NCBI GenBank assembly: GCA_000092065.1
Contig: CP000584.1
DNA: 64,000 nucleotides
Direction: 5' to 3' (one strand)
Origin: Ostreococcus lucimarinus
Lineage: Eukaryota
Shown: in pieces, positions 18,456 through 55,060 of the stretch
Position numbering within the stretch: position 1 is the stretch's first letter
Layout: each line of letters starts with the position of its first letter
Notes under the pieces: model-generated
What the model was told of the DNA's origin: nothing
Database searches by the model: none
The model's input: the letters and a program-made list of their open reading frames with translations, nothing else
Position numbers and translations under genes: made by a program

Positions 18456-21400
18456 ATGTACATCGAGGAAGTATGCATCGATGGCTTCAAGTCGTACGCC
18501 AAACGCACCGTCGTTCCGGGATTTGATCCGTTATTCAACGCGATCACCGGGTTGAACGGCTCGGGCAAGTCGAACATCTTGGATTCGATTTGTTTCGTGC
18601 TCGGGATTTCGAATCTCACGCACGTACGTCCGCGACGACGCGTCGGTGCTCGCGCACGTTGGATGGAGTTTCGTGCGCTCGGCGGCCGCGATGGATGACG
18701 ACGCGCGCGACGCGTGGGGGGGGAGATGATGACGACGCGCGCGGGGGGAACGAGCGCGCGCGAGGCGCGGTCGACGCGCGAGGGGATCGATCGCTGACGC
18801 GCGGCTCGATGCGGTAGCGATGAGAGCAGACGCGCGTAAAATTGATTGACTGACGATGTGCGCGCGTTCGGTCGAACGCAGGTGCGCGCGGCGAGCTTGC
18901 AAGAGCTCGTGTATAAGCAAGGCCAAGCGGGCGTCACCAAGGCGTCGGTGAGCGTGACGTTTAACAACGAGGATCGGACGCGGTCACCGGTCGGATACGA
19001 GCATTGCGATCGCATCACGGTGACGAGACAGATCGTGATTGGTGGGAAGAATAAGTACATGATCAATGGCGCGACGGCGCAGCCGACGCGGGTGCAGAAT
19101 TTGTTTCACTCGGTGCAGTTAAACGTGAACAATCCGCACTTTTTAATCATGCAAGGACGAATCACAAAGGTGTTGAACATGAAACCGCCGGAGATTTTGG
19201 GGATGCTCGAAGAGGCGGCGGGAACGCGGATGTACGAAAACAAAAAGGAAGGCGCGCTGAAGACGCTGGATAAGAAGCAGACCAAGGTTGATGAGATTGA
19301 CAGGTTGCTCGAGGAGGAAATCTTGCCGACGATTGAAAAGCTACGCAAAGAACGTGGCGACTACATGAAGTGGGCGGCGGCGAACGATAATCTCGAGCGC
19401 TTGCGCCGATTCTGCATCGCGTACGATTTCGTGATGGCGCAAGAAGCGGTCGAGAAGGCAAACGCGGGAACATCGAGCATCGTCGAAAAGATTGAAGAGC
19501 ACAAGAGCGCCATCGACGACGCCAATCGCGAGCAAACGGAGCTCGAGCTCCACGCGCAACGTTTGCAAACCGAAAAGGAAGAGCGCATGGGTTCAGAGAT
19601 GAAAGACCTGGTCGTTCGTACCGACACGATGTCCAAGGAGTTGGTGAAGGAAACCACCGCCTTGACGAACAAGCAAAACGAAGTGAAGAGCGAGCAAAAA
19701 GCCAAGGACAAGTTGTTGAAGGATGCTTCGGAAATGGAAGCCGCCGAGTCCAAGCGCGCCGAAAAAGTTGCTGCGCTCGAAGCCGAAGCCGCCGCCGAGC
19801 AAGCGTCGCTCGATGAGAAAGTGGCCGCCGCAGACATGGCTGAGCGCACGCTCCAAGGCGTGCAATCTGGCAAGGGAACGGGCGCAGACAAATCGTTGCA
19901 AGCGCAACTCGCCGACGCCGTCGCCGCGCAATCCTCCTGCGATGCTGAAGTGAAGTCTGCGGCACTCAAAATCAAGCACGTCGAGAAAGAGCTCGCGGTC
20001 GCGCAAAAGTCACTGAGTACGAAGCAAAAGGAAGGCGACAAGCTCACGAAGGAACTTCAATCCGCCGAGTCCGCGGTGGAGACGGCGCGCGCCAATCTCG
20101 CCAACTTTGGTGGATGCACGAGTGACAAGGCGGCCGAGCTCGAAGCGGCGTGCGACAAGGCAAACTTGGAAGTTCAAGAATTACAGCAAGAAGTTGATGT
20201 ATTGAACTCTAAGCTTGGTGACTGCGACTTTCAATTCCGCGATCCCGAGGCGAAGTTTGACCGCAAACGCGTTAAAGGCGTCGTCGCTAAGCTCATGCAA
20301 GTGAAGGACCCTGCCTCGGTCACCGCGCTCGAAGTCGTCGCCGGAGGTAAGCTGCACCAAGTTGTCGTTGATACAGACGTCACCGGTAAAGCACTTTTGG
20401 CTAAGGGTCAACTCAAGAAGCGTGTGACGATAATTCCGTTGAACAAAATCGACAGCCGAACGGCTACGGATCGTCAAATTGCCGCGGCGTCGAGCGTAAG
20501 CAAGGGCGAAGCCTCTCTCGCTCTCAGCCTCGTGACGTATGACGACGACGTGCAAAACGTGATGAAGTATGTTTTTGGTAAGGCTTTCGTCTGCAAAGAT
20601 CAGACCACGGCAAAGGCTGTCGCGTATGACAGAGATGTCATGTTGAACTGCGTCACCGTCGAGGGCGACATGTTCAACCCCAGCGGTGTCATCAGTGGAG
20701 GCTCTCGTAACACCGGCAGCGCGGTGCTGACTAAGCTTCACGCGTTGTACAAGGCTGAAGATGCATTGGCCAAAGCTAAGACTCGCGCCGAGTCCGCGTT
20801 GGAAACCGCCAAGGTGGCAGCCAAGGAGGCGAAAGAGGCGCAAAAGTTGGAAGACGAGTTGGATCGTCACGAACACGCGCTCGGTTTGTTGAAGGAGAAA
20901 GTCAGCGGTTCAGAAGTGCATCAACTCGCCGAAAAAGTTCGCAAATTCGAACAAGATCTAGCTGACGCCAAAAACACGACGGAGGAGGCCAAGGCGAAGA
21001 AGGTTGAGGCTGCACAGACAGCTGCGGCGCTTGAGAAAGAAATCAAGAGCTTTGAAAAGGAGCGCGATTCACGTTTGAAAGAAGCTGAAAAGGCTTTGAA
21101 AGAGGCGAGAAACGCAGTCACCAAAGCTCGAGCGCAAATTAAAGAGAAAGAAGAGTTTGTCACTAGCGCGCGGATCGAGAAAGAAGCTGCGGTTTCGGAA
21201 CGCGCGGCGCTCGATGAGCAAATCAACGAACGCGCCGCCGCCGTCGCGGAGTTGCGAGCCGAAGTCGAGACTATGCAAGCGGCCGTGTCGGAGAAGCAAC
21301 GTGAATACGACGTCGTCGCAGCTGAGCTTGAAGACCGGCGCGCGCGTGTCGCTGCGTGCGATGTCGAAATCTCTAAGCTGCTTAAGCGCAAGGAGAAACT

Positions 21401-22328
21401 CGAAGCCGCAGCGCAGGAACACGGGTTGGAAATGAAGAAGCTCGAGTATCAAATCACGCGCCATGAAAACGAAGCGAAGGATGCCGAGGCGCATCTCGAT
21501 AATCTTAAGAAAGAACATCAGTGGGTCGCGAGCGAGAGCGCGCTGTTTGGTCAGTCCGGAGGTGATTATGATTTCAAGAAGCGTTCCCCTTCGCAAGCGC
21601 AAGCGGAACTTGCAGAGTGCGAAGAAGCGCAGGCGACGCTCGGGAAGCGCGTGAACAAGAAGGTCATCGCCATGTTTGATAAGGCTGAAGCCGAGTTCAA
21701 AGAATTGCAAGAAAAGCGTCGCATCGTGTTGAACGATAGATCGAAGATTCAAAAGGTGATCACCGAGTTGGACGAGAAGAAGCGTGAGGCTTTGCAGCTG
21801 ACTTGGGAAAAGGTCACCAAGGACTTTGGTTCCATCTTTTCCACTTTGCTCCCAGGGACGAGCGCCAAGCTCCAACCTCCCGAAGGATGCACCGTGATGG
21901 ATGGTTTGGAAGTCAAGGTCGCTTTCGGGGAAGTTTGGAAGGAATCGCTCACCGAACTTTCGGGCGGTCAGCGATCGTTGCTCGCGTTGTCTTTAATTCT
22001 CGCGCTTTTGCTCTTCAAGCCTGCGCCGATTTACATTTTGGACGAGGTCGATGCTGCGCTGGATCTTTCGCACACGCAAAATATCGGACGCATGATCAAG
22101 CAGCACTTCCCGTTCTCCCAATTCCTCGTCGTTTCGCTGAAGGAAGGCATGTTCAACAACGCAAATGTTATTTTCCGCACCAAGTTTGTGGATGGCTTAT
22201 CGACTGTGACGCGATCGGTGCCCGCTTTGAAGGACAAGGAAGACAATACTCGTCCAGATGCGCCAAACGCACTCGCAGCGGCCGCGGCAAAACGTCGCGC
22301 GCCGACCAAACAGGGCAAAGAAAATTAA
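18456..22328 (+). CDS. SMC2: SMC2 (condensin subunit); join(18456..18623,18882..22328)
   Basis: Exon 1 encodes [56 protein letters not shown], which is the SMC2 N-terminus with the Walker A motif. Exon 2 continues [23 protein letters not shown] and runs through the coiled coils, hinge and C-terminal signature and Walker B ([36 protein letters not shown]). A 258-nt intron with GTACGT donor and acgcag acceptor lies between them. Confidence 0.92.
18624..18881 (+). other. Intron (258 nt) in SMC2
   Basis: GTACGT donor, CTGAC branch candidates and an ACGCAG acceptor. It is needed to join the conserved SMC2 N-terminal exon to the main ORF in frame. Confidence 0.8.
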
Positions 22329-22905
22329 TCTCGCGTAGACGCTCCGTGTAAGAATATGAATCCTTTTTCGTTTACGAGTCACACTAAAAATAGAATGCAG
22401 GTCAAGGAGCTTCGAGCCATGAAAAAAGTTCCAACGCAGTTCCTCCCTCTATTTGAGGTGGGTGAATCGTTCGAAGATGCCCCTGAGAAGAACGTCGCCG
22501 TCCTCCAAGACGAACCGGTGGCGCGCGAGGCTATTTTCATCACTGAAACGCCAGAGGAGAGCGCGGAGTATGATTTCGACTACGATCGATTCCATCCAAA
22601 CGCGCGAGCAGCTTTGTGTGCACTAAAGTTTGCGCTTAAACATCCACCATGCGCACCGCATTCTGACAAGCTCATCTCCGAGCTACATTACCTGAAACTC
22701 ACGGTTTCTGCGGGTAATCGAAGAGTCGCGCCGAACGAGTTAGCCGCGCAGCCGCGCGCCATCAGACGCAACGATGAATTATCCGCCGAGGAGAGTCGTA
22801 AAGTACTCGAGCTCGAGCGCACGCTTGAAGTACTGAGGCTCCGAGTGGCCCAACTAGCGTCCATGGAAGATGATCAAAGAATTAGCGATTGACTTACTAC
22901 AATGG

Positions 22906-24825
22906 TTATGCTTTCGCCGTCGAGGTTGAAGCGCCAGACAAATCTTGAATGAGTTGTCCAGCGTTCGCGAGCGAGGCGCGCATGCCTTCTAAACCTTCCG
23001 CGCGTTTGTGTAGCGCACTTTCCTGGCATGCGCGAATAAGCACGGCGAATGTGATTTCGGTGGGCATAAGTCCATCGATGCGTTGCATATCGTCGAGCAC
23101 GCTGAGTCCTCGCGTGACTTCGCCGCTTCGCACGTGCGCCCCGATGAGAGCATTGTACACCGCAGCGTTCCGTGGAACATCCCAATAGTTGCGCATTTTC
23201 TCCATCACGGCCTCCGCTTCGAGGTCTCGACCTTGGCATCCCAAGCAGTGAATGTACGCTCCGCACATGACGGTGTGCGGGATGATTCGGTTGCGCAACA
23301 TCTCCGTCCAAACGCCGTCCGCCGCGATGTACTCTCCGCTTCGCTCGGCAGCAGATATGAGCTGCGTGAAAGTGTACGAGTCTGGCTGGATTTTCGAGCG
23401 TTTCATCTCGTCATACACTTCAGTGCATCCTTCCCAGTCCCCGTACCTCGCGTATCCGCCCAAGAGCGCGTTGAAGGTGTACGTCGTGACGATCATCGTT
23501 GAGTTGCGCATAGCGTCGAAAACTTCGTTCGCGTGCGCCATGTCGCCGGCACGTCCTGCCATGGTGATGATGGCATGCATCAACGTCGCGTCCGGACGCA
23601 CGTCGTACTTTTTAATACGTTTTGCGACCGCGTTACCTTCGATCCAGCGTCGACAATTATCGAACGCCGTCAGCGTCAACGAAAACGCTAAGCTCGTCGG
23701 TTGAACTCCAGGCTCACGCGCCATCTCGTTGAGTACGGCCAACGCCTCGTCCGGCTTCGCCTCATCTCTCAACGCCGTGAGCACGGCTGTGTAAGTGTAC
23801 AAATTTCTCGGTTTGCCCTTGTCGCCCATGTCCCGAAACACTTGATACGCCCCGCTCCAATCACTCACGCGATTGAGTGCGGCGATCACCGCAGACGCGA
23901 TCTCGTTACAAATCAAGCTCTCATCATTCTCCGCGATACCGCGCTGCCACAAGTTTTGCACCGTTCGCGTTTGCGTCAGCGTCTTCGCCGCGCTGGCGAG
24001 CGACACGTACGTAAACTCATTCGGCGCGTACCGCCCTTGCTTGCGCGACATCCACAAATACAGCGCGTGCGCGCGATCGAAGCTCCCACGCTCACCGAGC
24101 TCCTTAATGGCAAAGTTAAGCGTCGACGTGGTGAATTTAAACTTCCCACCCTCGGGATTCACCGCGCTCGCGACGACGTCCCACGCGATGCGTTCGCCCT
24201 GCGCCGGCGCGTCGATAGATTCCATCGCCCGCACGATCCGTTCCCCCGCGCGCAACGGCGGCCTCCCGCTTCCACTCGCCGCGCCATCCCCGCGTCCACC
24301 GCCTCTCGTCTCCCTTTTTTGCGCGTGCGTCGGTTCCCTCTTACTCGCGTTCACGTGCCTCTGCAGCGCCCCGTGCGACGACTTCGTCACCCTCAGATCC
24401 ACCTCCGTCGTCGCCTTCCCTCGTCCTCCCTCCCTCGCGCGCGCGTCGTTCACCGTCCGTCCTCGCGCCGGCGCGTACCTCTGCCCTCGACGCGTCCCCG
24501 TCCCTCGCGCTCGCGCGTCGCTCGCGCGTCGCGTCGTCCCGACCCCGCCGCCGCGCGTCTCGTCTCGCGTCTCCTCCCCCACCCCGCGCGCGCTCGTCCC
24601 GTCGTCCCGTCGCATCGCGCGCGCGTCCCGCGTCGTCGCGTTCGCTCGCGCGCGTCCATCGCGGTCGTCGCGCGTCGCGTCGTCGTCGCGCGTCCCGTCG
24701 GTGCCGCCGCCGGCGCGCGCGCGCGCGCGCGCGATTCGTCGCGCGCCGTCGCGTCGCGCCGTCGTCGGCGCCCGCGCGACGCGCGATGGCGCGACGCGCG
24801 TCGCCGTCGTCGCCGCCGGCGCCAT
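22906..24825 (-). CDS. Pentatricopeptide-repeat (PPR) protein with basic N-terminal presequence
   Basis: 639-aa ORF with multiple 35-aa PPR-like repeats (for example YTYTAVLTALRDEAKPDEALAVLNEM and TYTFNALLGGYARYGDWEGCTEVYDEMKRSKIQPDSYTFTQLISAAERSG). The N-terminal 150 aa are Arg/Ala/Thr-rich, consistent with a targeting peptide plus low complexity. Confidence 0.8.
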   Translation of the reverse strand: MAPAATTATRVAPSRVARAPTTARRDGARRIARARARAGGGTDGTRDDDATRDDRDGRARANATTRDARAMRRDDGTSARGVGEETRDETRGGGVGTTRRASDARARGTGTRRGQRYAPARGRTVNDARAREGGRGKATTEVDLRVTKSSHGALQRHVNASKREPTHAQKRETRGGGRGDGAASGSGRPPLRAGERIVRAMESIDAPAQGERIAWDVVASAVNPEGGKFKFTTSTLNFAIKELGERGSFDRAHALYLWMSRKQGRYAPNEFTYVSLASAAKTLTQTRTVQNLWQRGIAENDESLICNEIASAVIAALNRVSDWSGAYQVFRDMGDKGKPRNLYTYTAVLTALRDEAKPDEALAVLNEMAREPGVQPTSLAFSLTLTAFDNCRRWIEGNAVAKRIKKYDVRPDATLMHAIITMAGRAGDMAHANEVFDAMRNSTMIVTTYTFNALLGGYARYGDWEGCTEVYDEMKRSKIQPDSYTFTQLISAAERSGEYIAADGVWTEMLRNRIIPHTVMCGAYIHCLGCQGRDLEAEAVMEKMRNYWDVPRNAAVYNALIGAHVRSGEVTRGLSVLDDMQRIDGLMPTEITFAVLIRACQESALHKRAEGLEGMRASLANAGQLIQDLSGASTSTAKA

Positions 24826-25385: not shown

Positions 25386-28300
25386 ATGACGTCGTCTTCG
25401 AAGGGCTCGCGCGATGGTGGCGTCGCGCGGCGCGTCGCGGTGTTCGCCGCGACGGCGATCGTGGCGTACGCGGTGGCGGGCGTGGCGACGACCAGAGAGG
25501 GACTGGCGCGAGTGGTGCTCTCGACGACGAAGACGAACGATGGACGCGCGCCGATGTGGGCGAAGGAAGGACACGCGCCGCTGAAGGCGTTCTTCAACGA
25601 TGCGATGGCTGACGCGCCGACGGGATTGACGCGCGACGAGCGCCGCGCTGCGCGGGCGCTGCGCGCCGCGCGCAAAGCGGCGCGCGCCGGCAACGGGCAA
25701 TCGGAGACGACGTTCACTCTTTCAAAGTCGTGGAAGTTGCATCGCTTGGCCAAGCTCGGGATCACGGAGGTATTGACGGATGATGACGAAGAGCCGAACG
25801 CGCTCTCCGATGTGTCGTTCACGAGCGCGCAGACCAAGGGCGCGCAGACGGCGTTTGATTTCTCGGAGGAGGAAGCAGAAGCCGCACCACAAAATCAAAC
25901 TGAAGATTTTCTCGCGGACAATTACGACGCTGAAGAAAAGATCGAGACTAGCGTTGATTCGGTGATTACCTCGTCGCCGGATGCGGTGTTTGCGGCACAG
26001 TTTGGGAATCACACATGTGTACAACAGTGCGCCGACGACGCCGACGTCGCGCAAATCATCGGCGGTTCCGGCTGCACTGCGCTTCAAGCGAACGACAACG
26101 TTTTCAAGTGCTTGAACGAAAAGTGTTCATGCGAGGAAGCCGTGGCTTTACACGAAACTTTGCTCTACGTTTGTGACGCGAATGAGGTTGGGAAGAACTT
26201 TTCATTCGTTCGACTCAACCAATTCTACGTCGACACTTTGGATGACGCGATCGACGAGTGCCAGGTCACCGATCTTCTTGACTCAGTCGTTTCTTCTCAG
26301 AACACGTACTGCGACAGTAACGAAGATCAAGACTCGACTATCTCGAATGTCACCGCCGCTGCGCTGGGTCAAGGATGCCACCGCGGCGGCGACCGCCCAA
26401 AGGTGGCCAATTGCATAGTCCACAAGTACTACTTTGCACGCTGCGACTACTGGGCCGGTTGCAGACGCGGATGCAACTCCTGGGATTATCCCATCCGTTG
26501 GAAGCATTGCGGCTGGTGCTGTCATCGATGTGTAAACTTCCCGTGCGGGGTGCATTGCCGTTGTAGATGTCGGCGCTGGCGCTGTCGCTGCAGCTGCCAC
26601 ACGAGATGGTGCCGTCGTTGCTGGCATTTACCAACGTATCGACCGAGGTGCCGCAAGGATAGATATTATCGGCAAAATAAATGCGATATTTGCTCGCCCG
26701 GCTACCGCGTAACACGCAATGGACGATGTCAACTTTACGGATGGATTCAAGCCATAGTCGACGGCATCAACGCCGTGAAGCAAGGGATCAAATACATCAA
26801 AAATGTCATCCCGAACACAATTGACAACATTAAGAACATGTTCACGAACGTCAAGACGCAAGCGAATACGGCGGTTACGAAACTGACAGAGCTCGCCGAT
26901 CAAATCGCGCAGAAAGTGACGGATCTCGCCGATGAAGTGGTTTCCAGTGTCATCTTCATCAAGCCGGCGACTTTCTTGCAAGCAATCGAGAGCGCCCTCC
27001 TTTCGTGTGACAACGCTCAATCCGCGCTCGGCTCCACCAAAATCAGCGCACATGAAGCAACGTCCCTTGGATTGCTCGATCCGGCGAATTCACACGTGCT
27101 TGAGGAAAAGCTTGGTGATATTTTTGGCAAATCCCGTAGCGGAGTTTCTCCCATCCAAGAATGGCGGTCTGATGATACGTCTTCGCTCGGAGTCGGACAG
27201 TGTGTGGCTCATTGCGGCGCTGGGATGTGTCTGCCCACGACAATACCGGCAATGACATACGAAACGCCTGATCACGGTATGCCCTTTCCGGATTCTATCC
27301 ATTTGGTCAAATATAAGCCGGACGCGGTGATCGTCAACGTGGCGGCGAACCCCGTCTCAGTATGCGTCAAGATGACGGAATTCAGCATCCCTACGACCGC
27401 CGCCGAATCAATCGTCAATGCTCTGGTTGATCAAATCAAACCAATCCTACTCGCTGGCGTCGATGAAGTCAAACAGTGGGGGAAGAACGCCGCAAAAGGC
27501 ATGAAAAACGCAGCCGTCGCCGTCGAAGACGGCGCAAACGACATGGCTGGATTTGTCCAAGGGATCCCGGATAAGCTCAACAATCTGGTAGGTCGACGTC
27601 GGTTACTCGCCGATGCCACGCCGTCAGACCAAGATCTCATCGACGTCTCGTTCGCGCTCGGTCGTCTGATGGCTCAGCAAAACAGGCTTCGTGAAAAAAC
27701 CGAAGCAGACGTCAGGCTCTCCTTGGATGAGCTCCGAGCGAGGCTCCAAGCGCTTCCGCACTTTTCGCACGCTCATCCGACGCACAAGGGCGCGGCAAAT
27801 CACGCAACGGCCAATCTTGGTGGTAATTTTCTCAGTGACGCGAGCGACGGACTCGTGAACGCGATGAAGCTCGCCTTCCAAGACATGAAGAACATGAAGA
27901 TGATTGCTCGCTCGACACTGGTCTTGGATTTGAACGTCGAGTTCAACACCGATGCGACTGCCTATCGTTTCGACGATCTCTTGAACAACGGTGAAGGGTA
28001 CACGATGATGATCGATCAAAGCATCCCGATCGGTCTGGGGTTCACCATCGCCATCACCGGTCGGCTTGATGTTAAGATGCCTTACTACTTCATCGCAGAA
28101 AGTGCCGGTAACTTTGCCTACAACGTGGCGTCGAACGATTTCTGGGTCGAGTTCGGCTCCGACGAAGGTAGCGGCGTGCTGAGACTTAACGACAACCCGC
28201 AGGTGACTATCACGCCGTCTGGCACTGGGCAAAGCTCGGTATCGTTTAAGGTATCGACTACTCTTCGTGCGAGTGATTTCAAGGTTTCCGTGTGCTTTGG

Positions 28301-47996: not shown

Positions 47997-48014
47997 CGCA
48001 CACCGCGGCGCGCC

Positions 48015-49181
48015 ATGCGTCGATTCCGAAGGGCCGTGTTCGCGAAGCGCGCGCCCGCGGGCGTCGTCGTCGCGACCGTCGCGCCGTCGCGAAGGTTTCG
48101 GACGTCGGACGCGCCGCGCGCGCGGTCGCTCGCGCGCGAGATTGGACGCTTCGCGCGGCGCGCGTGGACGCGCTTTTGGGCGAACGTTTGGGGCGACGGC
48201 GAGGTCGATCCGCCTCGGCCGCGCGTGCTGGTGAAGGTGCGCGCGTGCTCGTTGAATCCGGTGGACGCCAAGTATCTGTACGGCGATAAGTGTCCGAGGA
48301 TGTTTCGGCCGTTCGTGCGCGGCGTCGTGGACGGCCGAGGCGTGGGATTTGACTTTAGCGGCGTCGTCGTCGAGGCGGACGCGAACGCGGAATTTAGACG
48401 AGGTCAAGCCGTGTTCGGGGTCGCACCGCCGCTTGAGGGCGCGTGCGCTGAGTACGTGGAGTGCTACGCCGATATGATCGCGGAGAAGAGCGTCAACATG
48501 ACGCACGCCGAAGCCGCGGCGATCGGCCTGTGCGGCGCGACGATTTGCCAAGCGCTCGACGCGTTTTGCAAAGTCGTTCCGTCACCCGTGCTCGTCATCG
48601 GCGCCTCTGGTGGATTGGGTCATTTAGCGGTGCAAATCTGCAAATGCGAGGGCGCAGAAGTCGTCGGCGTTTCGTCGGCGCGAAATTTGGAGTTTGTGCG
48701 TTCGCTCGGCGTCGACGCCGCGGCGCCGTACGACGATCCGGACTCGACGTTGGAAGAACACCTCGCCGAATGGGGGCACGGTCACAAGAAGTTCAAGCTC
48801 ATACTAGACACGGTCACGTCCAACGCCGCGGTGGACGCGCAGTACGATTACTGCTCGCGCCTGCGCGAAATCGTCGACGATGACTGTCGCTACGTAAAGT
48901 TCGGAGGAACGCCCACGCAATGGGCGTTCGCCCACATTCGTCGCATCGGGTTGACAGTGCCGTTCTCCGACTTTCACAAGCGCGCGCCACCGTTCTGGAT
49001 CTACTTCCGCGGCCTCGAGCGCCAATTGCGCTACTTGCGAGACATGTACGACGCCGGCGACTTGAAACCGCGCGTCGGTAATCGCTTCCCGTTCACGAAC
49101 GACGGCGTTCGCGACGCGTTCGCTCTCTTGCGCTCGCGCCGCGCCGTCGGTAAAGTCATCATCGACATCGATGAAAATTGA
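48015..49181 (+). CDS. Medium-chain dehydrogenase/reductase (zinc-free quinone-oxidoreductase-like) with N-terminal presequence
   Basis: MDR fold with an NAD(P) Rossmann motif (VLVIGASGGLGHLAVQICKCEGAEVVGVSSARNLEFVRSLGVD) and the N-terminal GroES-like region (RVLVKVRACSLNPVDAKYLYGDK). The N-terminus is basic. Confidence 0.8.
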   Translation: MRRFRRAVFAKRAPAGVVVATVAPSRRFRTSDAPRARSLAREIGRFARRAWTRFWANVWGDGEVDPPRPRVLVKVRACSLNPVDAKYLYGDKCPRMFRPFVRGVVDGRGVGFDFSGVVVEADANAEFRRGQAVFGVAPPLEGACAEYVECYADMIAEKSVNMTHAEAAAIGLCGATICQALDAFCKVVPSPVLVIGASGGLGHLAVQICKCEGAEVVGVSSARNLEFVRSLGVDAAAPYDDPDSTLEEHLAEWGHGHKKFKLILDTVTSNAAVDAQYDYCSRLREIVDDDCRYVKFGGTPTQWAFAHIRRIGLTVPFSDFHKRAPPFWIYFRGLERQLRYLRDMYDAGDLKPRVGNRFPFTNDGVRDAFALLRSRRAVGKVIIDIDEN

Positions 49182-49215
49182 ATACACGAACACCGTCCCG
49201 CGCGGCGGCGCGCCG

Positions 49216-49228
49216 TTTTCAAATCGCG
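49216..49228. promoter_or_regulatory. TTTTCAAATCGCG element (CHR-like TTTGAA on the opposite strand) about 85 bp upstream of the FANCJ-like helicase ATG
   Basis: The same CGCGATTTGAA core as the PLK upstream element. Confidence 0.3.
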
Positions 49229-49309
49229 ACAGCTGCGCCGCGCCTCACACATCGTCGCGCGTCGCGCGCGTCTTCCGCGGCCCCACCGAACGCGGCGCGG
49301 TGGCGAAGC

Positions 49310-52225
49310 ATGTCGCGCGACGAAGATTGCGACCTGAGTCCGCGCGAGATCGCGTCGCCGCGCGACGCCGACGACGAGGGCGATGATGTTCGCGTCGTGT
49401 GCATCGACGAAGGCGACGACGCGACGCCGCGCGCGCGCGCGTCCGCGGACGCGCCGGACGCGACGACGTCGACGCGAGCATTCCCAGGCGCGTCCACGGC
49501 GCCGGACGCGCGCGCGGCGCGGTTCAAACCGGAACTGAGCGTCAAGTCGTACTTTAAGAAGATTGAACCAAACGACGCGACGCGCGACGGCGACGCGACG
49601 ACGCCGGAGGACGCCTCGCCGAAGCGTCGGCGAGGGTTGGTGAAGATTGAATTCGAAAAGGACAGGCGCGAATTCACGACGAAGGCGATCGGGGGATGTA
49701 AGGTGAAGTTTCCGGAGGGACTGAATCCACATCCGGCGCAGACGATGACGATGTCGAGCATCATTCGAGCGTTGACGAAACGCGAGCACGCGATGATTGA
49801 GTCGCCCACGGGGACGGGGAAAACGTTAGCGCTGTTGTGCGGGGCGTTGGCGTGGCAGGAACGAGAGGTGGCGCTTTCGATGGAGAAGAACAAGGGCTAT
49901 TGGTCGGAAAAGATGAAGTATCAAACGGCGCGGAACGCGTACAAAGACGCGGTGGAGAACGGGAAGACGCCGACGGTGGAGCGCGGCGTCGGTTGGGCCT
50001 CGAATGATCCGTATTTTCCGAATCCGCACGGTTCGACGCTCCGACCGAAGATTTTCATCTGTTCGCGAACGCATTCGCAGATTAATCAAATTTTGCGTGA
50101 ACTCAAGCGAACGGGGTATTCGCCGCGGTACAGCGTGCTGTCCTCGAGACAACGGATGTGCCCGATGGAAAAGAACGACGCGCAGTGCAAAGAATTACTC
50201 GGCACTGGAGTGGCTCAACAGAGCGGTCGCACGGCGTGCGGGTTTTTCAATCGACACAAGCACGTGTCGTCGAACATGGAGCGATACCCGAAGGCGGGCG
50301 AAGAAGGCATGTTTCCGAGCGCGTGGGACATGGAAGACTTTGAGCGCGTCGTGAATGAAATCGAAGGTTGTTCGTTTTACGCGCTTCGCGAGATGGTGAA
50401 GACCGCGGATTTGATCTTTTGCCCGTACAATTATCTGTTTGACGTGAACATTCGACGAAAGATGAAGATAGATCTGAAGGACGCCGCCGTCATCATCGAT
50501 GAAGGGCACAATCTTGAAGACGTGTGCAGAGAAGGTTCGTCGATTGAGTTTTCGCTCGACACCATCGGAAAAGGTATGGATGAGTTGTCGAAGACTTGGG
50601 GGAAAATCAACAACGAAACGAGTTTGATCGCCAGATTCTTTCGAGCGATTTCCGCGTTCATGGAGGGTCTTTTCTGCACCAACACCGCGCCGACGACGGT
50701 GATTCAATCGAACCAGCTCGAGTACTTCGTAAACGACATGCTGAAAACATTCAACGCGGTGGGTGAGTACACGCAGGACATCATAGACGTCGTAGAAAAG
50801 TTACTCACTGAGGACAGCAATTTGATGTCGCCTATCATCGCGCCGCACATTACGTTCGCCGGAGATCTAGCCGAAGTTTTGCAAAACGCCGTCAAGCACG
50901 CGGCTGCGTACAACATTTTCATCGGCTCGCGGGTTGAAATCGACGGCGATGAATGTCCAGGTATGGTGATTCAGTGCATGAAGCCGTCAGTCGCGTTTCA
51001 CGCCGTTGCGGAGAAAGCGCGCTCGGTAATCATCACCTCTGGTACGTTGTCGCCGATGAATACGTTCGAGGCGGAGCTCGCCGAGAAGTTTCCGACGAAA
51101 ATCGAAGCGCCCCACGTGGTGCCAAACGATCACGTGTACGTCGAAGTGACGAGCGCGATTGGCGAGGTGACGTACAAGGCGACAGATGGACACGTCCAAG
51201 GACCGAAGTTCGCGAAAAAGTTGGGCGAATACTTGTTGAAATACGCTCAAGTCATCCCGGGAGGGATGCTCGTGTTTCTTCCAAAGTATAGTCTCATCGA
51301 CCGCGTCTTGCGCGAATGGCACGTGACTGGTTTGTTTGGGAAGATGAACGATTACAAACGCGTCGTCGTGGAAACGCGGGGCGCGCGAGGTTTCCAGGAC
51401 ACCCTGAACGAATTCAATCTCGGAAACACGAACGGTAAAGGATCGTTGATGCTTGCCGTGTACCGCGGTAAAGTGTCCGAAGGTATCGATTTCAAAGACG
51501 ACAGCGCGCGGGCTGTGTTTTGCGTCGGCATTCCGTTTCCGAGCGTCTACGACATCAAGGTGAAGGCGAAGAAAGAATTTAACGATTTACCCGTTTCTCG
51601 AGCGCAAGGCATGCTATCGGGCGGCGAGTGGTACCGCGCGCAGGCGTACCGCGCGTACAACCAAGCGCTCGGTCGTTGCATTCGCCATCCGAAGGATTAC
51701 GCCGCGTTGTTCCTCGTCGACTCGCGTTTTCGCGAAAGTCGTTGGATGCTGAACAACATCTCTAAATGGATTCGCAACAACGCGCAGGCGTCCGACGACG
51801 TCAATCAAAGCGTGCGAGTGGTGGATGGATTCTTTAAGCGCCTTCGCGGCGCATCCGACGGAAACGCGCCGGCGGGGTCGACGGCAAAGCACGAGGAAAC
51901 TCAACAAAAAGAAAATCTCCTCTGCGGCCTGGGGTGCGAGAAAAACGCCGCGCTCTGCGCCGCGCTCGAGAGACTCCACGAAGCGAGTATGCTTTCGCCC
52001 GAGGAGCCGATGAAAGTGAACGCGTATGCGAAAGCGTTGACGTCCATTCGCGCGTTGAAGTACGAAGTCACGAGTGGCGCGAAGATGAGTAAAGCGGGTC
52101 CCGACAAAGTGCAGCACGTCGGACCGTCCATGGGCGCGCAAATCGATTTCTTTCTCAAGCACGGCGTCTTCGAACGAATGGAGTATTACGAGCGCAAAGA
52201 GCTTCCCCCGTCGTCGGCGAAGTAG
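49310..52225 (+). CDS. FANCJ/RTEL-family Fe-S DNA helicase (DEAD_2 plus Helicase_C_2) with C-terminal Pol-beta-like 8-kDa HhH domain
   Basis: Motif I ESPTGTGKTLALLCGALAWQ, IFICSRTHSQI, an Fe-S Cys cluster (CPMEKNDAQCKELLG...GRTACGFF), the DEAH box (IIDEGHNLED) and C-terminal helicase motifs (IITSGTLSP, VFCVGIPFP, GRCIRHPKDY). It is most similar to BRIP1/FANCJ around the Fe-S and arch regions. The last about 90 aa align to the Pol beta lyase/HhH domain. The start is set at the ATG at 49310, because the 49178 ORF start overlaps the upstream gene. Confidence 0.85.
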   Translation: MSRDEDCDLSPREIASPRDADDEGDDVRVVCIDEGDDATPRARASADAPDATTSTRAFPGASTAPDARAARFKPELSVKSYFKKIEPNDATRDGDATTPEDASPKRRRGLVKIEFEKDRREFTTKAIGGCKVKFPEGLNPHPAQTMTMSSIIRALTKREHAMIESPTGTGKTLALLCGALAWQEREVALSMEKNKGYWSEKMKYQTARNAYKDAVENGKTPTVERGVGWASNDPYFPNPHGSTLRPKIFICSRTHSQINQILRELKRTGYSPRYSVLSSRQRMCPMEKNDAQCKELLGTGVAQQSGRTACGFFNRHKHVSSNMERYPKAGEEGMFPSAWDMEDFERVVNEIEGCSFYALREMVKTADLIFCPYNYLFDVNIRRKMKIDLKDAAVIIDEGHNLEDVCREGSSIEFSLDTIGKGMDELSKTWGKINNETSLIARFFRAISAFMEGLFCTNTAPTTVIQSNQLEYFVNDMLKTFNAVGEYTQDIIDVVEKLLTEDSNLMSPIIAPHITFAGDLAEVLQNAVKHAAAYNIFIGSRVEIDGDECPGMVIQCMKPSVAFHAVAEKARSVIITSGTLSPMNTFEAELAEKFPTKIEAPHVVPNDHVYVEVTSAIGEVTYKATDGHVQGPKFAKKLGEYLLKYAQVIPGGMLVFLPKYSLIDRVLREWHVTGLFGKMNDYKRVVVETRGARGFQDTLNEFNLGNTNGKGSLMLAVYRGKVSEGIDFKDDSARAVFCVGIPFPSVYDIKVKAKKEFNDLPVSRAQGMLSGGEWYRAQAYRAYNQALGRCIRHPKDYAALFLVDSRFRESRWMLNNISKWIRNNAQASDDVNQSVRVVDGFFKRLRGASDGNAPAGSTAKHEETQQKENLLCGLGCEKNAALCAALERLHEASMLSPEEPMKVNAYAKALTSIRALKYEVTSGAKMSKAGPDKVQHVGPSMGAQIDFFLKHGVFERMEYYERKELPPSSAK

Positions 52226-52286
52226 AACTGAAATGTAAATGTACAATAAATAGCTTTGGTAATACGAATACAAACGCGCGCATCGT

Positions 52287-52988
52287 TTAGAACCGCCGAC
52301 GCGCCTCCGCGCTCGCCTCTCGCGCCTCGAAAAATCGCGACAACGCGATCACCGCCGCGTGCGTGACGCTCAACGACTCGATCAAGCGTCCCATCGGTAT
52401 GCTGCACAGCGCGTCGCACAGCGCCAGCTCTCGCTCCGACAACCCATCCGCCTCGTTCCCGAACACCAACGCCAATTTCCCTCCGTCTTCGCCTCCTCCC
52501 GGATACGCCGCCGTCAGCGCCGCCAAATCGTCGAATCGCGCGCGCGACGCCTCCGCCTCCGCGTCGTCGAGCCTCCACGGATGAAATCCGACCACCGTTC
52601 CCACCGTCCCGCGCAGCGCGTCCTCCAGGCTCGCGTGCGCGTCCGCCGCGCGCGGCACCAACCACTGCGCCCCCTTCGCCGCGTTCACGCACGCGCGGCA
52701 CTCGACGTCGCACAGCGGCGTCGCCACGCGAAAATCGCAGCACTCGAACGCCGCGCACGCCCTCGCCATCGCCCCGACGTTCGACGCCGTCTTGGGCGAG
52801 CAGAATATCACGCACACGTCGCGAAGCGTCCCCGGCGGGTCCTCGAGCGCGCCTCGCGGGCCTCGGCGAAGCGACGCCGCCCAGCGGTCGCGATGTCGGT
52901 TATCGCCGCGCCGCGCGCCGCGCGCGCGCTTCGCCGCGCCCTCGCGCGCCGGTTCGCCCGCGAGACGCGCGCGCGCCGCCGCGAACAT
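52287..52988 (-). CDS. SpoU/TrmH-family RNA 2'-O-ribose methyltransferase
   Basis: SpoU-type motifs (VIFCSPKTASNVGAMARACAAFE, LALVFGNEADGLSERELALCDALCSIPMGRLIESLSVTHAAVIALSRF). Confidence 0.75.
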   Translation of the reverse strand: MFAAARARLAGEPAREGAAKRARGARRGDNRHRDRWAASLRRGPRGALEDPPGTLRDVCVIFCSPKTASNVGAMARACAAFECCDFRVATPLCDVECRACVNAAKGAQWLVPRAADAHASLEDALRGTVGTVVGFHPWRLDDAEAEASRARFDDLAALTAAYPGGGEDGGKLALVFGNEADGLSERELALCDALCSIPMGRLIESLSVTHAAVIALSRFFEAREASAEARRRF

Positions 52989-53008
52989 GACGCTTTTCGC
53001 GGCGACGA

Positions 53009-55060
53009 ATGGCGCGTCACATCGCCGCGCGCTCGACCGCGCGCGCGCCGGCGCGCATGCGCTTCGAGCTCGACCCCGACGACGTCTTCTACCGCGCCGC
53101 GGACGCGCGCGCGTCGCGCGACGACGACGACGACGCGAATCGCGTGCGCGTCGAGGTGCACTTTTCGGGACATCGCTCGACGCTCGACGCGAATTGCGAC
53201 GCGGTGCGCGCGACGATCGCGCGCGTCGCGCGCGGACACGTGTGGGCGCGCGATGCGCCGCGCGTGGCGCCGATCGCGGGGTCGAACGCGTGCGAGTGGT
53301 CGGTGTGGGTCGGAGACGACGTCGACGACGCGTGGTTGGCGGCGGCGTGCGCGCTCGAGACGTCGAGCGAGCGCGCGGACGTCGCGCGCGCGGTGCGAGT
53401 CTGGGACGACGACGGGGAGTTCACGCTGATCGAAACCGCGGAGGCGCTGCCGGCGTGGGTGACGCCGGAGCGCGCGACGGGGACGACGTTTTTGGTGAAG
53501 GGCGAGCTGGTGGTGCGGGACGGCGGGGCGACGGAACGCGCGGGGGGCGGGGCGAACGCGCGAGCGCGGACGAACGCGGCGTTGGAGACGCTCGACGACG
53601 CGGAGAGGATGCCGGAGGAAGCGCAGAAGATTTTGAGGGCGAGAACGGACGCGGCGACGCGCAAGGCGAAGGAAAATCGTCACGACGCGTTTGCGATTAC
53701 GCCGAGGCGCGTCGCGCGCGTGCTGCGACGAGAACCGCAACTCGTGGCGGCGGCGATCGAGAGTTTGCGAGCGCGCGATCCCGCGGGCGTGCGCGCGGCG
53801 GCGAAGATGACGCACTTCGAGCCGGTGGATTTTCACCCGACGCTGGTGCGAATGTCGCGATGGTTGTTCTCGGAAATCAGTCGCGAGCGTTTCGAAGCGC
53901 CGGAGCGATATCCGATGCCGCCAAAGAGCGCGGATGATTTCATCGCGCGCGAGCTCGGGATGAAGATCGCGTGCGGGTTCGAGATGTTACTCGCCGATCG
54001 CGGACCGGTCGTCGACGCGTCCGCGAGCGACGCCGAACCGGTGGACGATCGGGCGTGGACGACGTTTAAGGCGAGTTTGACGGAGAACGGGTATTTTAGA
54101 AACGAAATGGTTGGAAGCGCGATGTACAGGACGCTCCTGGCGAACGCGGTGCGCGAGTACAACGCGTCGCCACAAGCGTCGACGTCTCGCCGTGCGCAAC
54201 GTTCGGCGCCCGCCGAACGCGTTCGCGAGATTCTCGCCGCGCCCGAGAGCGACGACGACGCGTTGCGCGCGGCTTCGCCGAGCGACGCGAGCGATGAGAC
54301 TTGGCTTCTTGAAGCCGACAAAGCGCTGAACGAGGAGTTAGCCAAGCTAGAAAAAGAGCGCGAGCGCACGGTGTGCGACGCGACGAGGAGCGCGAGATCG
54401 TTCGTCGAGCGCGAATCCGGATTCGAAGGCGTGGAGACGCGATCGCGGCGGGTGAATCACAACGCCGCGCCGGGCGCGTGTCCGGGTGATTTAAACATCC
54501 CCGACGGCGATGCCGGGTTCAGCTTAGACGCTCGAAAGTTCCTCAGCGAACTCGGCAAGGCGCTCGCGATCGAGGACGACGACAAGTTGCGACGGTACCT
54601 GGACGCCGACGGCGCGGACTTTGATTCCGACGACTCCGACGACGACTTCAATTTCCCCGACGACTCCGACTCCGACGCCGCGCGTCGCCGCGCGCGCGAC
54701 TCCGACGACTTACCCGAGGACGATTTCTTCGCGTCGTCTTCCGATTCCCTCGACGCGGACTCCACCGACTTCGTCCACGTCGGCGACGACGCCTCCGACA
54801 GCGACGACGACGACGACGACGACGCCTTCGCCGCCCACTACGACGCCGTCCTCCGCCGACAACTCGCGTCCACCGACCTCGACGTCACGCCATCCGACGC
54901 CACCGACGCCGACGTCTCCGCCGCCCTCGCGCGCGGTTTTCTCCACAGCGCCTCCGCCGACGCCTCGCGCGCCGGTCCCGCCGCGAGTCTCCTCGCCGCC
55001 GCCGGCGTCCCCGCCGACGTCGCCCGCGCGCTCCACCTCCACCGCCCCGACGCCCCGTGA
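53009..55060 (+). CDS. ECD: Ecdysoneless (ECD/hSGT1) homolog
   Basis: It aligns with ECD in several segments (DDDGEFTLIETAEALPAWVTPE, EPQLVAAAIESL, RELGMKIACGFEML, NGYFRNEMVGSAMYRTLL) and has an acidic C-terminal tail. The start is at 53009 or the in-frame ATG at 53057. Confidence 0.8.
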   Translation: MARHIAARSTARAPARMRFELDPDDVFYRAADARASRDDDDDANRVRVEVHFSGHRSTLDANCDAVRATIARVARGHVWARDAPRVAPIAGSNACEWSVWVGDDVDDAWLAAACALETSSERADVARAVRVWDDDGEFTLIETAEALPAWVTPERATGTTFLVKGELVVRDGGATERAGGGANARARTNAALETLDDAERMPEEAQKILRARTDAATRKAKENRHDAFAITPRRVARVLRREPQLVAAAIESLRARDPAGVRAAAKMTHFEPVDFHPTLVRMSRWLFSEISRERFEAPERYPMPPKSADDFIARELGMKIACGFEMLLADRGPVVDASASDAEPVDDRAWTTFKASLTENGYFRNEMVGSAMYRTLLANAVREYNASPQASTSRRAQRSAPAERVREILAAPESDDDALRAASPSDASDETWLLEADKALNEELAKLEKERERTVCDATRSARSFVERESGFEGVETRSRRVNHNAAPGACPGDLNIPDGDAGFSLDARKFLSELGKALAIEDDDKLRRYLDADGADFDSDDSDDDFNFPDDSDSDAARRRARDSDDLPEDDFFASSSDSLDADSTDFVHVGDDASDSDDDDDDDAFAAHYDAVLRRQLASTDLDVTPSDATDADVSAALARGFLHSASADASRAGPAASLLAAAGVPADVARALHLHRPDAP

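What the first reader, a model, noticed from the sequence alone, without database searches (positions are those of the whole stretch)
51930..52225. Fe-S (FANCJ/RTEL-type) helicase fused to a Pol-beta-like 8-kDa helix-hairpin-helix domain
After the complete Rad3/XPD-family helicase core, the last about 90 aa (LCAALERLHEASMLSPEEPMKVNAYAKALTSIRALKYEVTSGAKMSKAGPDKVQHVGPSMGAQIDFFLKHGVFERME) align residue-by-residue with the N-terminal 8-kDa dRP-lyase/HhH domain of DNA polymerase beta ([68 protein letters not shown]). Shared positions include N-A-Y-x-K-A, the SGA and G-x-x-I HhH elements, and the I-D-x-F-L helix. The lyase Lys (Pol beta K72) is Gln here, suggesting a 5'-phosphate and gap DNA-binding module rather than catalysis. 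I do not know this helicase and Pol-X-domain fusion from characterised FANCJ or RTEL1 proteins.
Basis: partly seen in the sequence, partly recalled or inferred. Interest (0 to 1): 0.55.

Follow-up and report, generated by a model that had tools for sequence, protein, structure and literature searches.

The report
FANCJ-like helicase with borrowed HhH tail
A DNA-repair helicase gene of the tiny green alga Ostreococcus really does end in a small DNA-polymerase-beta-type helix-hairpin-helix domain, but the domain is catalytically dead, was copied from a PARP-like protein of the same alga rather than from a polymerase, and is a lineage-restricted add-on rather than a new kind of system.

The parts
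49310..52225 (+). Complete CDS of the helicase-HHH_8 fusion (971 aa plus stop). The mechanical ORF begins at 49178 (TTG), but the public model and the orthologs start at the ATG at 49310.
   Evidence: Exact 971-aa product found in the protein collection.
49799..49825 (+). Walker A / helicase motif I (ESPTGTGKT), invariant in all orthologs and aligned to human FANCJ ESPTGSGKS.
50057..50557 (+). DEAD_2 region with the Fe-S cluster domain. The four invariant Cys codons are at 50159-50161, 50186-50188, 50237-50239 and 50369-50371. The DEGH box is at 50498-50509. The four Cys lie in register with the four cysteines in this segment of human FANCJ (9ej9).
   Evidence: Pfam E 2e-38; invariant columns; alignment to 9ej9.
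51236..51778 (+). Helicase_C_2 (second motor domain). It is the most conserved region, with 78% mean pairwise identity among the tailed orthologs.
   Evidence: Pfam E 9e-47.
51842..51931 (+). Variable, indel-rich linker between the helicase core and the tail (27% mean identity, 51% gaps among orthologs). Inferred to be a flexible tether.
   Evidence: The AF2 tail model has pLDDT below 50 for the residues of this segment that it includes.
51908..51916 (+). K-E-N tripeptide inside the linker. It is present in 9 of the 11 aligned sequences (8 of 10 distinct orthologs), including both tail-less ones. It may be a KEN-box degron; this was not tested.
51941..52165 (+). HHH_8 (Pol X 8-kDa-type helix-hairpin-helix) domain. 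Ser (52127-52129) sits at the Pol beta K68 position and Gln (52139-52141) at the K72 nucleophile position. There is a 5-residue loop insertion (KAGPD) before the HhH hairpin.
52166..52222 (+). Conserved C-terminal extension (ERMEYYERKELPPSSAK region) beyond the Pfam domain. It is shared with the Ostreococcus SAP-PADR1-HHH_8 paralog (FERMEYYERGEIPPSTKK) and, more weakly, with a Gymnochlora zf-PARP-HHH_8 protein.

Best explanation
Shown: this is one gene of Ostreococcus lucimarinus. It encodes a FANCJ-family Fe-S (Rad3/XPD-type) DNA helicase. Behind a poorly conserved, length-variable linker, its C-terminus carries a well-conserved HHH_8 domain with the fold of the Pol X 8-kDa domain. The domain lacks the Pol beta Schiff-base lysine (Gln in 8/8 orthologs) and K68 (Ser in 8/8), so it is not a Pol beta-type dRP lyase. 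It is most closely related to the C-terminal HHH_8 of a SAP + PADR1-zinc-ribbon protein encoded in Ostreococcus, not to any polymerase. That protein belongs to a wider algal/protist family that also includes zf-PARP + HHH_8 proteins. The simplest history is a domain duplication or shuffling event within the Ostreococcus lineage. The sister algal FANCJ-like group has no tail, and the tail was lost again in one sub-lineage. Inferred: the tail acts as a tethered, non-catalytic targeting module. It would occupy the place of the partner-binding C-terminal region of animal FANCJ and would concentrate the helicase at the same DNA structure or partner that the PARP-like paralog recognises. If the ligand is DNA, binding would run through the retained HhH hairpin (x-V/I-G) and K35/K41/K61 rather than a Pol beta-style 5'-phosphate pocket. 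At a gap, an anchor at the downstream junction would sit behind a 5'->3' translocase and favour its loading onto the gap's single strand.
For: Continuous ORF and in-frame tail in eight orthologs of 52-99% identity from independent assemblies. O. tauri annotated protein of 970 aa in the same cluster. Identical synteny (Polo kinase, ADH, helicase, SpoU, SGT1) in L001-L003. HHH_8 above the Pfam cutoff. Fold match to Pol beta/lambda/X. Tail as conserved as the Fe-S domain (62% against 65% mean pairwise identity), while the linker is at 27% with 51% gaps. Core closest to human FANCJ (383 bits, against 173 for CHL1 and 172/140 for XPD). Four Fe-S Cys, Walker A and DEGH aligned. Core lies outside the RTEL1 clade (100% bootstrap), and no RTEL1-specific Pfam domains are found. 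Gln at K72 together with Asn/His at G64 is shared only by the helicase tails and the Zn-ribbon paralog family, out of about 180 related domains. Tails plus paralogs group at 90% bootstrap, with 53-58% identity against at most 47% to other relatives and 29% to Pol beta. The paralog aligns end to end with SAP-PADR1-HHH_8 proteins (hhalign E 1e-29 and 1e-20), and relatives carry zf-PARP. The tail-less ortholog nests inside the tailed clade (83% bootstrap, against 13% for a tailed-only clade), and its locus has no remnant of the tail.
Against: No experiment and no transcript evidence was available. DNA binding is not demonstrated. Six of the eight Pol beta DNA-contact residues are replaced (K60, K68, K72, R83, H34, R40), and the tails are near neutral (net -1 to +2) against +7 for Pol beta. 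A protein-binding role is therefore a serious alternative. One lineage lost the tail, so it is dispensable at least there. The NJ trees rest on short or few sequences. The direction of transfer (paralog to helicase, or the reverse) is inferred only from the wider distribution of the SAP/PADR1/zf-PARP + HHH_8 architecture.
Confidence: 0.6

Rival explanations
1. The tail is a protein-protein interaction module rather than a DNA binder. It would recruit the helicase to a partner (possibly the same partner as the SAP-PADR1-HHH_8 paralog, or the paralog itself), in the way the MUS81 N-terminal HhH serves as an interaction platform.
Confidence: 0.3
2. The tail is still a dRP/AP lyase and uses a different lysine (for example the K35, K41 or K61 equivalents, or the Lys in the inserted loop) as nucleophile. 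That would give the helicase an end-cleaning activity.
For: K35 (K/R), K41 and K61 equivalents are conserved, and Y39 is kept in 5 of 8. Most non-polymerase relatives keep Lys at the K72 position (87 of about 160 domains), so the ancestral module may have been catalytic.
Against: K72 is the main catalytic residue, and K72A abolishes dRP lyase activity in Pol beta (PMC2241857). Here K72 is Gln and K68 is Ser in all 16 helicase and paralog sequences, and E26 is Ala/Ser.
Confidence: 0.05
3. The fusion is an artefact: two adjacent genes joined by a sequencing or assembly error, or the similarity to Pol beta is chance.
For: None found. The only hint is that the 971-aa product has no exact match among NCBI/UniProt O. 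lucimarinus proteins although its neighbours do, so the deposited model may differ.
Confidence: 0.02

Closest known systems
FANCJ / BRIP1 (human; PDB 9ej9)
   Same: Rad3/XPD-type SF2 motor. Walker A, DE(G/A)H box, four-Cys Fe-S domain and Helicase_C_2 all align. It is the best solved relative by a wide margin (E 3.7e-113, 383 bits). JGI/KEGG-style annotation of the orthologs is 'Fanconi anemia group J protein' (K15362).
   Different: The alignment skips human FANCJ residues 84-235, an insertion in the first motor domain. By general knowledge that insertion holds the MLH1-binding lysines. Nothing aligns beyond human residue 881, so the C-terminal region (by general knowledge the BRCA1-BRCT-binding region) has no counterpart. 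A linker plus HHH_8 sits there instead.
8-kDa (dRP lyase) domain of DNA polymerase beta / lambda / bacterial Pol X (Pfam HHH_8, PF14716)
   Different: It is C-terminal on a helicase and has no nucleotidyltransferase domain. K72->Q, K68->S, R83->E, K60/H34/R40 not kept. There is a 5-residue loop insertion and an extra conserved C-terminal extension. Net charge is about 0 instead of +7.
SAP - PADR1 zinc ribbon - HHH_8 proteins of Ostreococcus (e.g. O. tauri BE221DRAFT_78223, P0376) and the wider zf-PARP/SAP/PADR1 + HHH_8 family (Gymnochlora P0213, diatom Mayamaea P0254, P0251, P0262)
   Same: The HHH_8 is the tail's nearest relative (53-58% identity, 90% bootstrap). It has the same Ser/Gln at K68/K72, the same Asn/His at G64, the same loop insertion and the same FERMEYY-RGE-PP ending. 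It is also C-terminal.
   Different: The N-terminal partner is a PARP1-like break-sensor module, not a helicase. The paralog domains are more basic (net +2 to +5). The wider family mostly keeps Lys at the K72 position.
MUS81 N-terminal HhH (PDB 2kp7)
   Different: Lower structural similarity than to Pol X domains. N-terminal position. Attached to a nuclease, not a helicase.
RTEL1
   Same: Fe-S Rad3-family helicase, similar overall scores in the homology search.
   Different: The window's helicase lies outside the RTEL1 clade (100% bootstrap). It lacks the RTEL1-associated Pfam domains PF23109/PF23116 that the RTEL1 hits carry.

Membership tests
HHH_8 / Pol X 8-kDa domain fold family (PF14716) | Profile match above Pfam's curated gathering score over most of the model | tested here: met
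   43.6 bits (whole protein) and 45.9-46.9 bits (tail alone) against a cutoff of 30; profile positions 2-71/72 of 73.
HHH_8 / Pol X 8-kDa domain fold family (PF14716) | Helical 8-kDa fold superposable on solved Pol X domains | tested here: met
HHH_8 / Pol X 8-kDa domain fold family (PF14716) | HhH hairpin (G-h-G) of the second helix-hairpin-helix | tested here: inconclusive
   G66 is invariant and V/I65 is kept, but G64 is His/Asn in 5 of 8 orthologs (Gly in 154 of about 160 other relatives).
Pol X dRP lyase (functional class) | Schiff-base nucleophile Lys72 (Pol beta numbering) with K35/Y39/K68 pocket | tested here: not met
   K72->Gln in 8/8 and K68->Ser in 8/8. K35 is kept as K/R. Y39 is Tyr in 5 of 8 and Ile in 3 of 8. 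Residue roles from PMC2241857.
Pol X dRP lyase (functional class) | Pol beta DNA / 5'-phosphate-binding residues K41, K60, H34, R40, Y39, K68, K72, R83 | tested here: not met
   Only K41 (7 K, 1 R) and Y39 (5 of 8) are retained. Net charge about +0.75 against +7.
Pol X DNA polymerase | Nucleotidyltransferase palm/fingers/thumb domains following the 8-kDa domain | tested here: not met
   No polymerase domain in the protein. The HHH_8 lies within about 20 residues of the C-terminus, followed only by a short conserved extension.
FANCJ (BRIP1) helicase family | Rad3/XPD-type SF2 motifs (Walker A, DEAH-type box) and Helicase_C_2 | tested here: met
   Pfam DEAD_2 at 2e-38 and Helicase_C_2 at 9e-47. 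Motifs invariant and aligned to human FANCJ.
FANCJ (BRIP1) helicase family | Four-cysteine Fe-S cluster domain between motifs Ia and II | tested here: met
   C328, C337, C354 and C398 (ORF numbering) are invariant in 11 sequences and lie in register with the four cysteines of this segment of human FANCJ.
FANCJ (BRIP1) helicase family | Closer to FANCJ than to XPD, DDX11/CHL1 or RTEL1 | tested here: met
   383 bits to FANCJ against 173 (CHL1) and 172/140 (Rad3/XPD). Outside the RTEL1 clade at 100% bootstrap. The deep placement relative to metazoan FANCJ is not resolved (metazoan FANCJ clade at only 60%).
FANCJ (BRIP1) helicase family | Animal FANCJ partner-binding regions (insertion at residues 84-235; C-terminal BRCA1-BRCT-binding region) | tested here: not met
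   The HMMER alignment skips human residues 84-235 and ends at human residue 881. The partner-binding roles of those regions are from general knowledge.
FANCJ (BRIP1) helicase family | 5'->3' helicase activity, G4/fork unwinding, role in crosslink repair | not testable with these tools
   Needs biochemistry or genetics.
RTEL1 | RTEL1-specific accessory domains (Pfam PF23109, PF23116) and clade membership | tested here: not met
   Absent at E up to 10, while present in the named RTEL1 hits. Excluded from the RTEL1 clade.
zf-PARP/SAP/PADR1 + HHH_8 family (source of the tail) | HHH_8 subtype with loop insertion and C-terminal extension, grouping with the family's domains | tested here: met
zf-PARP/SAP/PADR1 + HHH_8 family (source of the tail) | N-terminal SAP / PADR1 zinc ribbon / zf-PARP modules | tested here: not met
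   None of these are in the helicase. Only the HHH_8 module is shared.

The most novel reading that the evidence does not exclude
HHH_8 is a widespread, overlooked, polymerase-independent DNA-discontinuity reader in algae and protists, occurring as tandem arrays and on PARP-type zinc-finger/SAP/PADR1 proteins. Helicase recruitment to gaps or nicks would then be hard-coded in cis, instead of depending on BRCA1/TopBP1-type phospho-protein adaptors. The tail-less sister lineage would be a natural knockout.
Probability: 0.2. Interest if true: 0.55.

Novelty: new variant of a known kind. Interest (0 to 1): 0.35.

Why it matters
It shows that the Pol X 8-kDa domain is a portable module used outside polymerases. 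It also gives a concrete, genetically tractable case in which a FANCJ-type helicase replaced the adaptor-binding tail of its animal counterparts with a structured HhH domain; O. tauri has the same gene and, by general knowledge, supports homologous gene replacement. If the tail reads a DNA structure, this would be a simple model for how Fe-S helicases are targeted in organisms with a reduced repair network. If it binds a protein, it links FANCJ to a PARP-like sensor family of unknown function. Either way it is an incremental finding about domain shuffling in DNA-repair proteins, not a new system.

Tried and rejected
(1) A tail-only word-index homology search found nothing, probably because the query is too short for the index. 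It was replaced by the exhaustive profile search. (2) The 4340-aa, 11-stretch hit P0216 is an ankyrin/NACHT protein, a helical-repeat false positive. (3) The AFDB fold library was unavailable. (4) The AF2 model of the paralog was uninformative for its N-terminal 111 residues (pLDDT below 50), so profile comparison was used instead. (5) The synonymous/non-synonymous comparison of the window with the 99.5%-identical MAG locus L001 was uninformative: 14 differing codons, none in the linker or tail. (7) The bacterial promoter/terminator scan is irrelevant for this eukaryote. (8) Rfam found no RNA family in the window. (9) 'RTEL1' was rejected as the subfamily. (10) 'Domain captured from Pol lambda/beta' was rejected, because Pol beta is only 29% identical while a non-polymerase paralog is 53-58% identical and shares derived residues. 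(11) 'Missed stop or frameshift' was rejected. Limitation: the exhaustive search used a profile of these tails at a whole-library E of 1e-3 or better. A Rad3-family helicase carrying a typical Pol X-like HHH_8, which scores only about 24 bits with this profile, would have been missed. Pfam architectures were seen for only the best 120 of 1002 helicase hits.
Full report
WHAT IS THERE. The window is from Ostreococcus lucimarinus CCE9901. The neighbouring ORF products match XP_001417147.1 and XP_001417430.1 exactly, on a 930,724-bp record. A single uninterrupted ORF runs 49178..52225 on the + strand. The public gene model for a 99%-identical MAG, and all orthologs, start at the ATG at 49310, giving 971 aa. 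Pfam finds DEAD_2 (E 2e-38), Helicase_C_2 (E 9e-47) and, at ORF residues 922-996 (nt 51941-52165), HHH_8 (PF14716). The HHH_8 hit scores 43.6 bits against a curated cutoff of 30 and covers almost the whole profile. The tail on its own scores 46-47 bits.

IS THE FUSION REAL? Yes. Eight orthologs of 52-99% identity from independent assemblies have the tail in frame and in register. One 90% cluster contains the annotated O. tauri protein XP_003078600.1 / Q01BG6 ('DEAD2', 970 aa). Gene order is the same in three loci examined: Polo kinase, ADH, helicase, SpoU methylase, SGT1. Among the tailed orthologs the HHH_8 region is as conserved as the Fe-S domain (62% against 65% mean pairwise identity). 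The 30-residue linker before it is 27% identical with 51% gaps. That is the signature of a constrained module on a flexible tether. Two orthologs (P0009, P0010) stop directly after the core. In locus L002 the stop codon lies about 60 bp from the convergent SpoU gene, and tblastn finds no remnant of the tail. In an NJ tree of the helicase core the tail-less form nests inside the tailed clade (83% bootstrap, against 13% for a tailed-only clade). The sister algal group (100% bootstrap) has no tail. The reading is one gain followed by one loss.

WHICH HELICASE? The best solved relative is human FANCJ (9ej9, E 3.7e-113, 383 bits). CHL1/DDX11 scores 173 bits and Rad3/XPD 172 and 140 bits. Walker A, the DE(G/A)H box and all four Fe-S cysteines are in register with FANCJ. 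The protein lies outside the RTEL1 clade (100% bootstrap) and lacks the RTEL1-associated Pfam domains that the RTEL1 hits carry. JGI names the orthologs 'Fanconi anemia group J protein'. Human FANCJ's insertion at residues 84-235 and everything beyond residue 881 have no counterpart.

WHAT KIND OF HHH_8? An exhaustive profile search of 1.84 billion representative proteins gave only 133 hits. The only proteins over 800 aa with a C-terminal copy are P0005 and P0006, which represent this helicase's own orthologs; P0216 is an ankyrin false positive. No Pol X polymerase was seen among the non-helicase hits. In the 20 scanned with Pfam, the hits fell into two groups: (a) proteins of 230-450 aa with two to four tandem HHH_8 copies, and (b) proteins with zf-PARP, SAP and/or PADR1 zinc-ribbon domains followed by a C-terminal HHH_8, for example from Gymnochlora and the diatom Mayamaea. 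The strongest single-domain hit, P0186 (117 bits), belongs to a family present in O. tauri (BE221DRAFT_78223). That family aligns end to end with the SAP-PADR1-HHH_8 proteins (hhalign E 1e-29 and 1e-20). Its HHH_8 shares several derived features with the helicase tail: Ser at the K68 position, Gln at K72, Asn/His at G64 and Glu at R83. It also shares the ending FERMEYY-R(G/K)E-PP. The loop insertion before the hairpin is also shared, but it occurs more widely in the non-polymerase relatives too. The combination of Gln at K72 with Asn/His at G64 occurs only in these two groups, out of about 180 related domains. The two groups cluster with 90% bootstrap. Identity is 53-58%, against at most 47% to other relatives and 29% to Pol beta. 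The tail is therefore a paralog of a PARP-like sensor protein's HHH_8, acquired within the Ostreococcus lineage.

FUNCTION. [quoted passage not shown] The residues reported as important for DNA binding are K41, K60, H34, R40, Y39, K68, K72 and R83 (PMC2241857). In the eight helicase tails K72 is Gln and K68 is Ser (8/8 each), R83 is Glu (8/8), and K60, H34 and R40 are not kept. K41 is kept (7 K, 1 R), Y39 is Tyr in 5 of 8, and K35 is K/R. Net charge over the domain is -1 to +2 (mean +0.75), against +7 for Pol beta. So 'not a Pol beta-type lyase' is well supported, but 'a 5'-phosphate/gap binder like Pol beta' is not supported by sequence. The retained features are the HhH hairpin (x-V/I-G) and a few lysines. 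My best reading is a tethered, non-catalytic targeting module. It would take the place of animal FANCJ's adaptor-binding C-terminus and direct the helicase to whatever the PARP-like paralog's HHH_8 recognises. I put DNA as the ligand at about 50% and a protein at about 30%. The association of this HHH_8 subtype with zf-PARP, SAP and PADR1 modules favours a DNA-damage context. This functional step is inference, and no tool here can test binding.

NOVELTY. No paper in the searched library mentions the fusion. The protein is in public databases with PF14716 precomputed but without a functional name. It is a lineage-restricted domain-architecture variant of two well-known families, so I rate it a new variant of a known kind with moderate-to-low interest.

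LIMITS. The trees are neighbour-joining on few or short sequences. Most orthologs come from unnamed metagenome contigs, so the lineages with and without the tail cannot be named. There is no transcript evidence. There was no PAE or docking information. The survey would miss helicases carrying a more typical Pol X-like HHH_8.

Noticed in passing
Related proteins P0024-P0027 (sister algal FANCJ-like group): These helicases carry an N-terminal RNase H1-type hybrid-binding domain (Cauli_VI, PF01693; E 6.5e-16 and 8e-18). One also has a G-patch. Different lineages of the same helicase family have therefore bolted on different nucleic-acid-binding modules, here suggesting an R-loop link.
   Followed up: partly
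Related proteins P0183-P0185, P0188, P0189, P0192, P0196, P0236: Proteins of 240-450 aa made of two to four tandem HHH_8 domains and no polymerase domain (Pfam totals up to 202 bits). JGI auto-names one 'DNA polymerase/3'-5' exonuclease PolX', which looks like a misannotation. Organisms and function are unknown.
   Followed up: partly
Related proteins P0213, P0217, P0251, P0254, P0262, and P0186/P0375-P0381: A family combining PARP-type zinc finger, SAP and/or PADR1 zinc ribbon with a C-terminal HHH_8 and no PARP catalytic domain. It is found in Gymnochlora (chlorarachniophyte), Mayamaea (diatom) and Ostreococcus. I found no description of it in the papers searched.
   Followed up: partly
window 51908-51916: A K-E-N tripeptide in the otherwise variable linker is present in 9 of the 11 aligned sequences (8 of 10 distinct orthologs), including both tail-less ones (EKENVVES, EKENVLKS). 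It may be a KEN-box (APC/C) degron and so hint at cell-cycle control of the helicase.
   Followed up: no
window 49310-52225 and 53009-55060: The 971-aa helicase product has no exact match among NCBI/UniProt O. lucimarinus proteins, although the flanking ADH and SpoU products do. The SGT1-like neighbour is annotated as 667 aa against the 683-aa ORF. The deposited gene models for these two genes probably differ from the full ORFs.
   Followed up: partly
window 50001-52000: GC content dips to 54% across the helicase gene, while the adjacent 2-kb bins (48001-50000 and 52001-54000) are at 65-68%. Similar dips occur at 8001-10000, 20001-24000 and 26001-28000. The cause was not examined.
   Followed up: no
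window 49310-51841 versus L001 3001-5532: Against the 99.5%-identical MAG copy, the helicase core shows 11 non-synonymous but only 3 synonymous codon differences, and the linker plus tail show none. The numbers are too small to interpret, but the ratio is odd.
   Followed up: no
window 51614-52273 (- strand): A 219-aa antisense ORF overlaps the whole tail, and there are many other long ORFs in alternative frames. This is typical of GC-rich sequence. No homology supports them.
   Followed up: no
window 1-64000: No Rfam family reaches its gathering score anywhere in the 64-kb window.
   Followed up: yes
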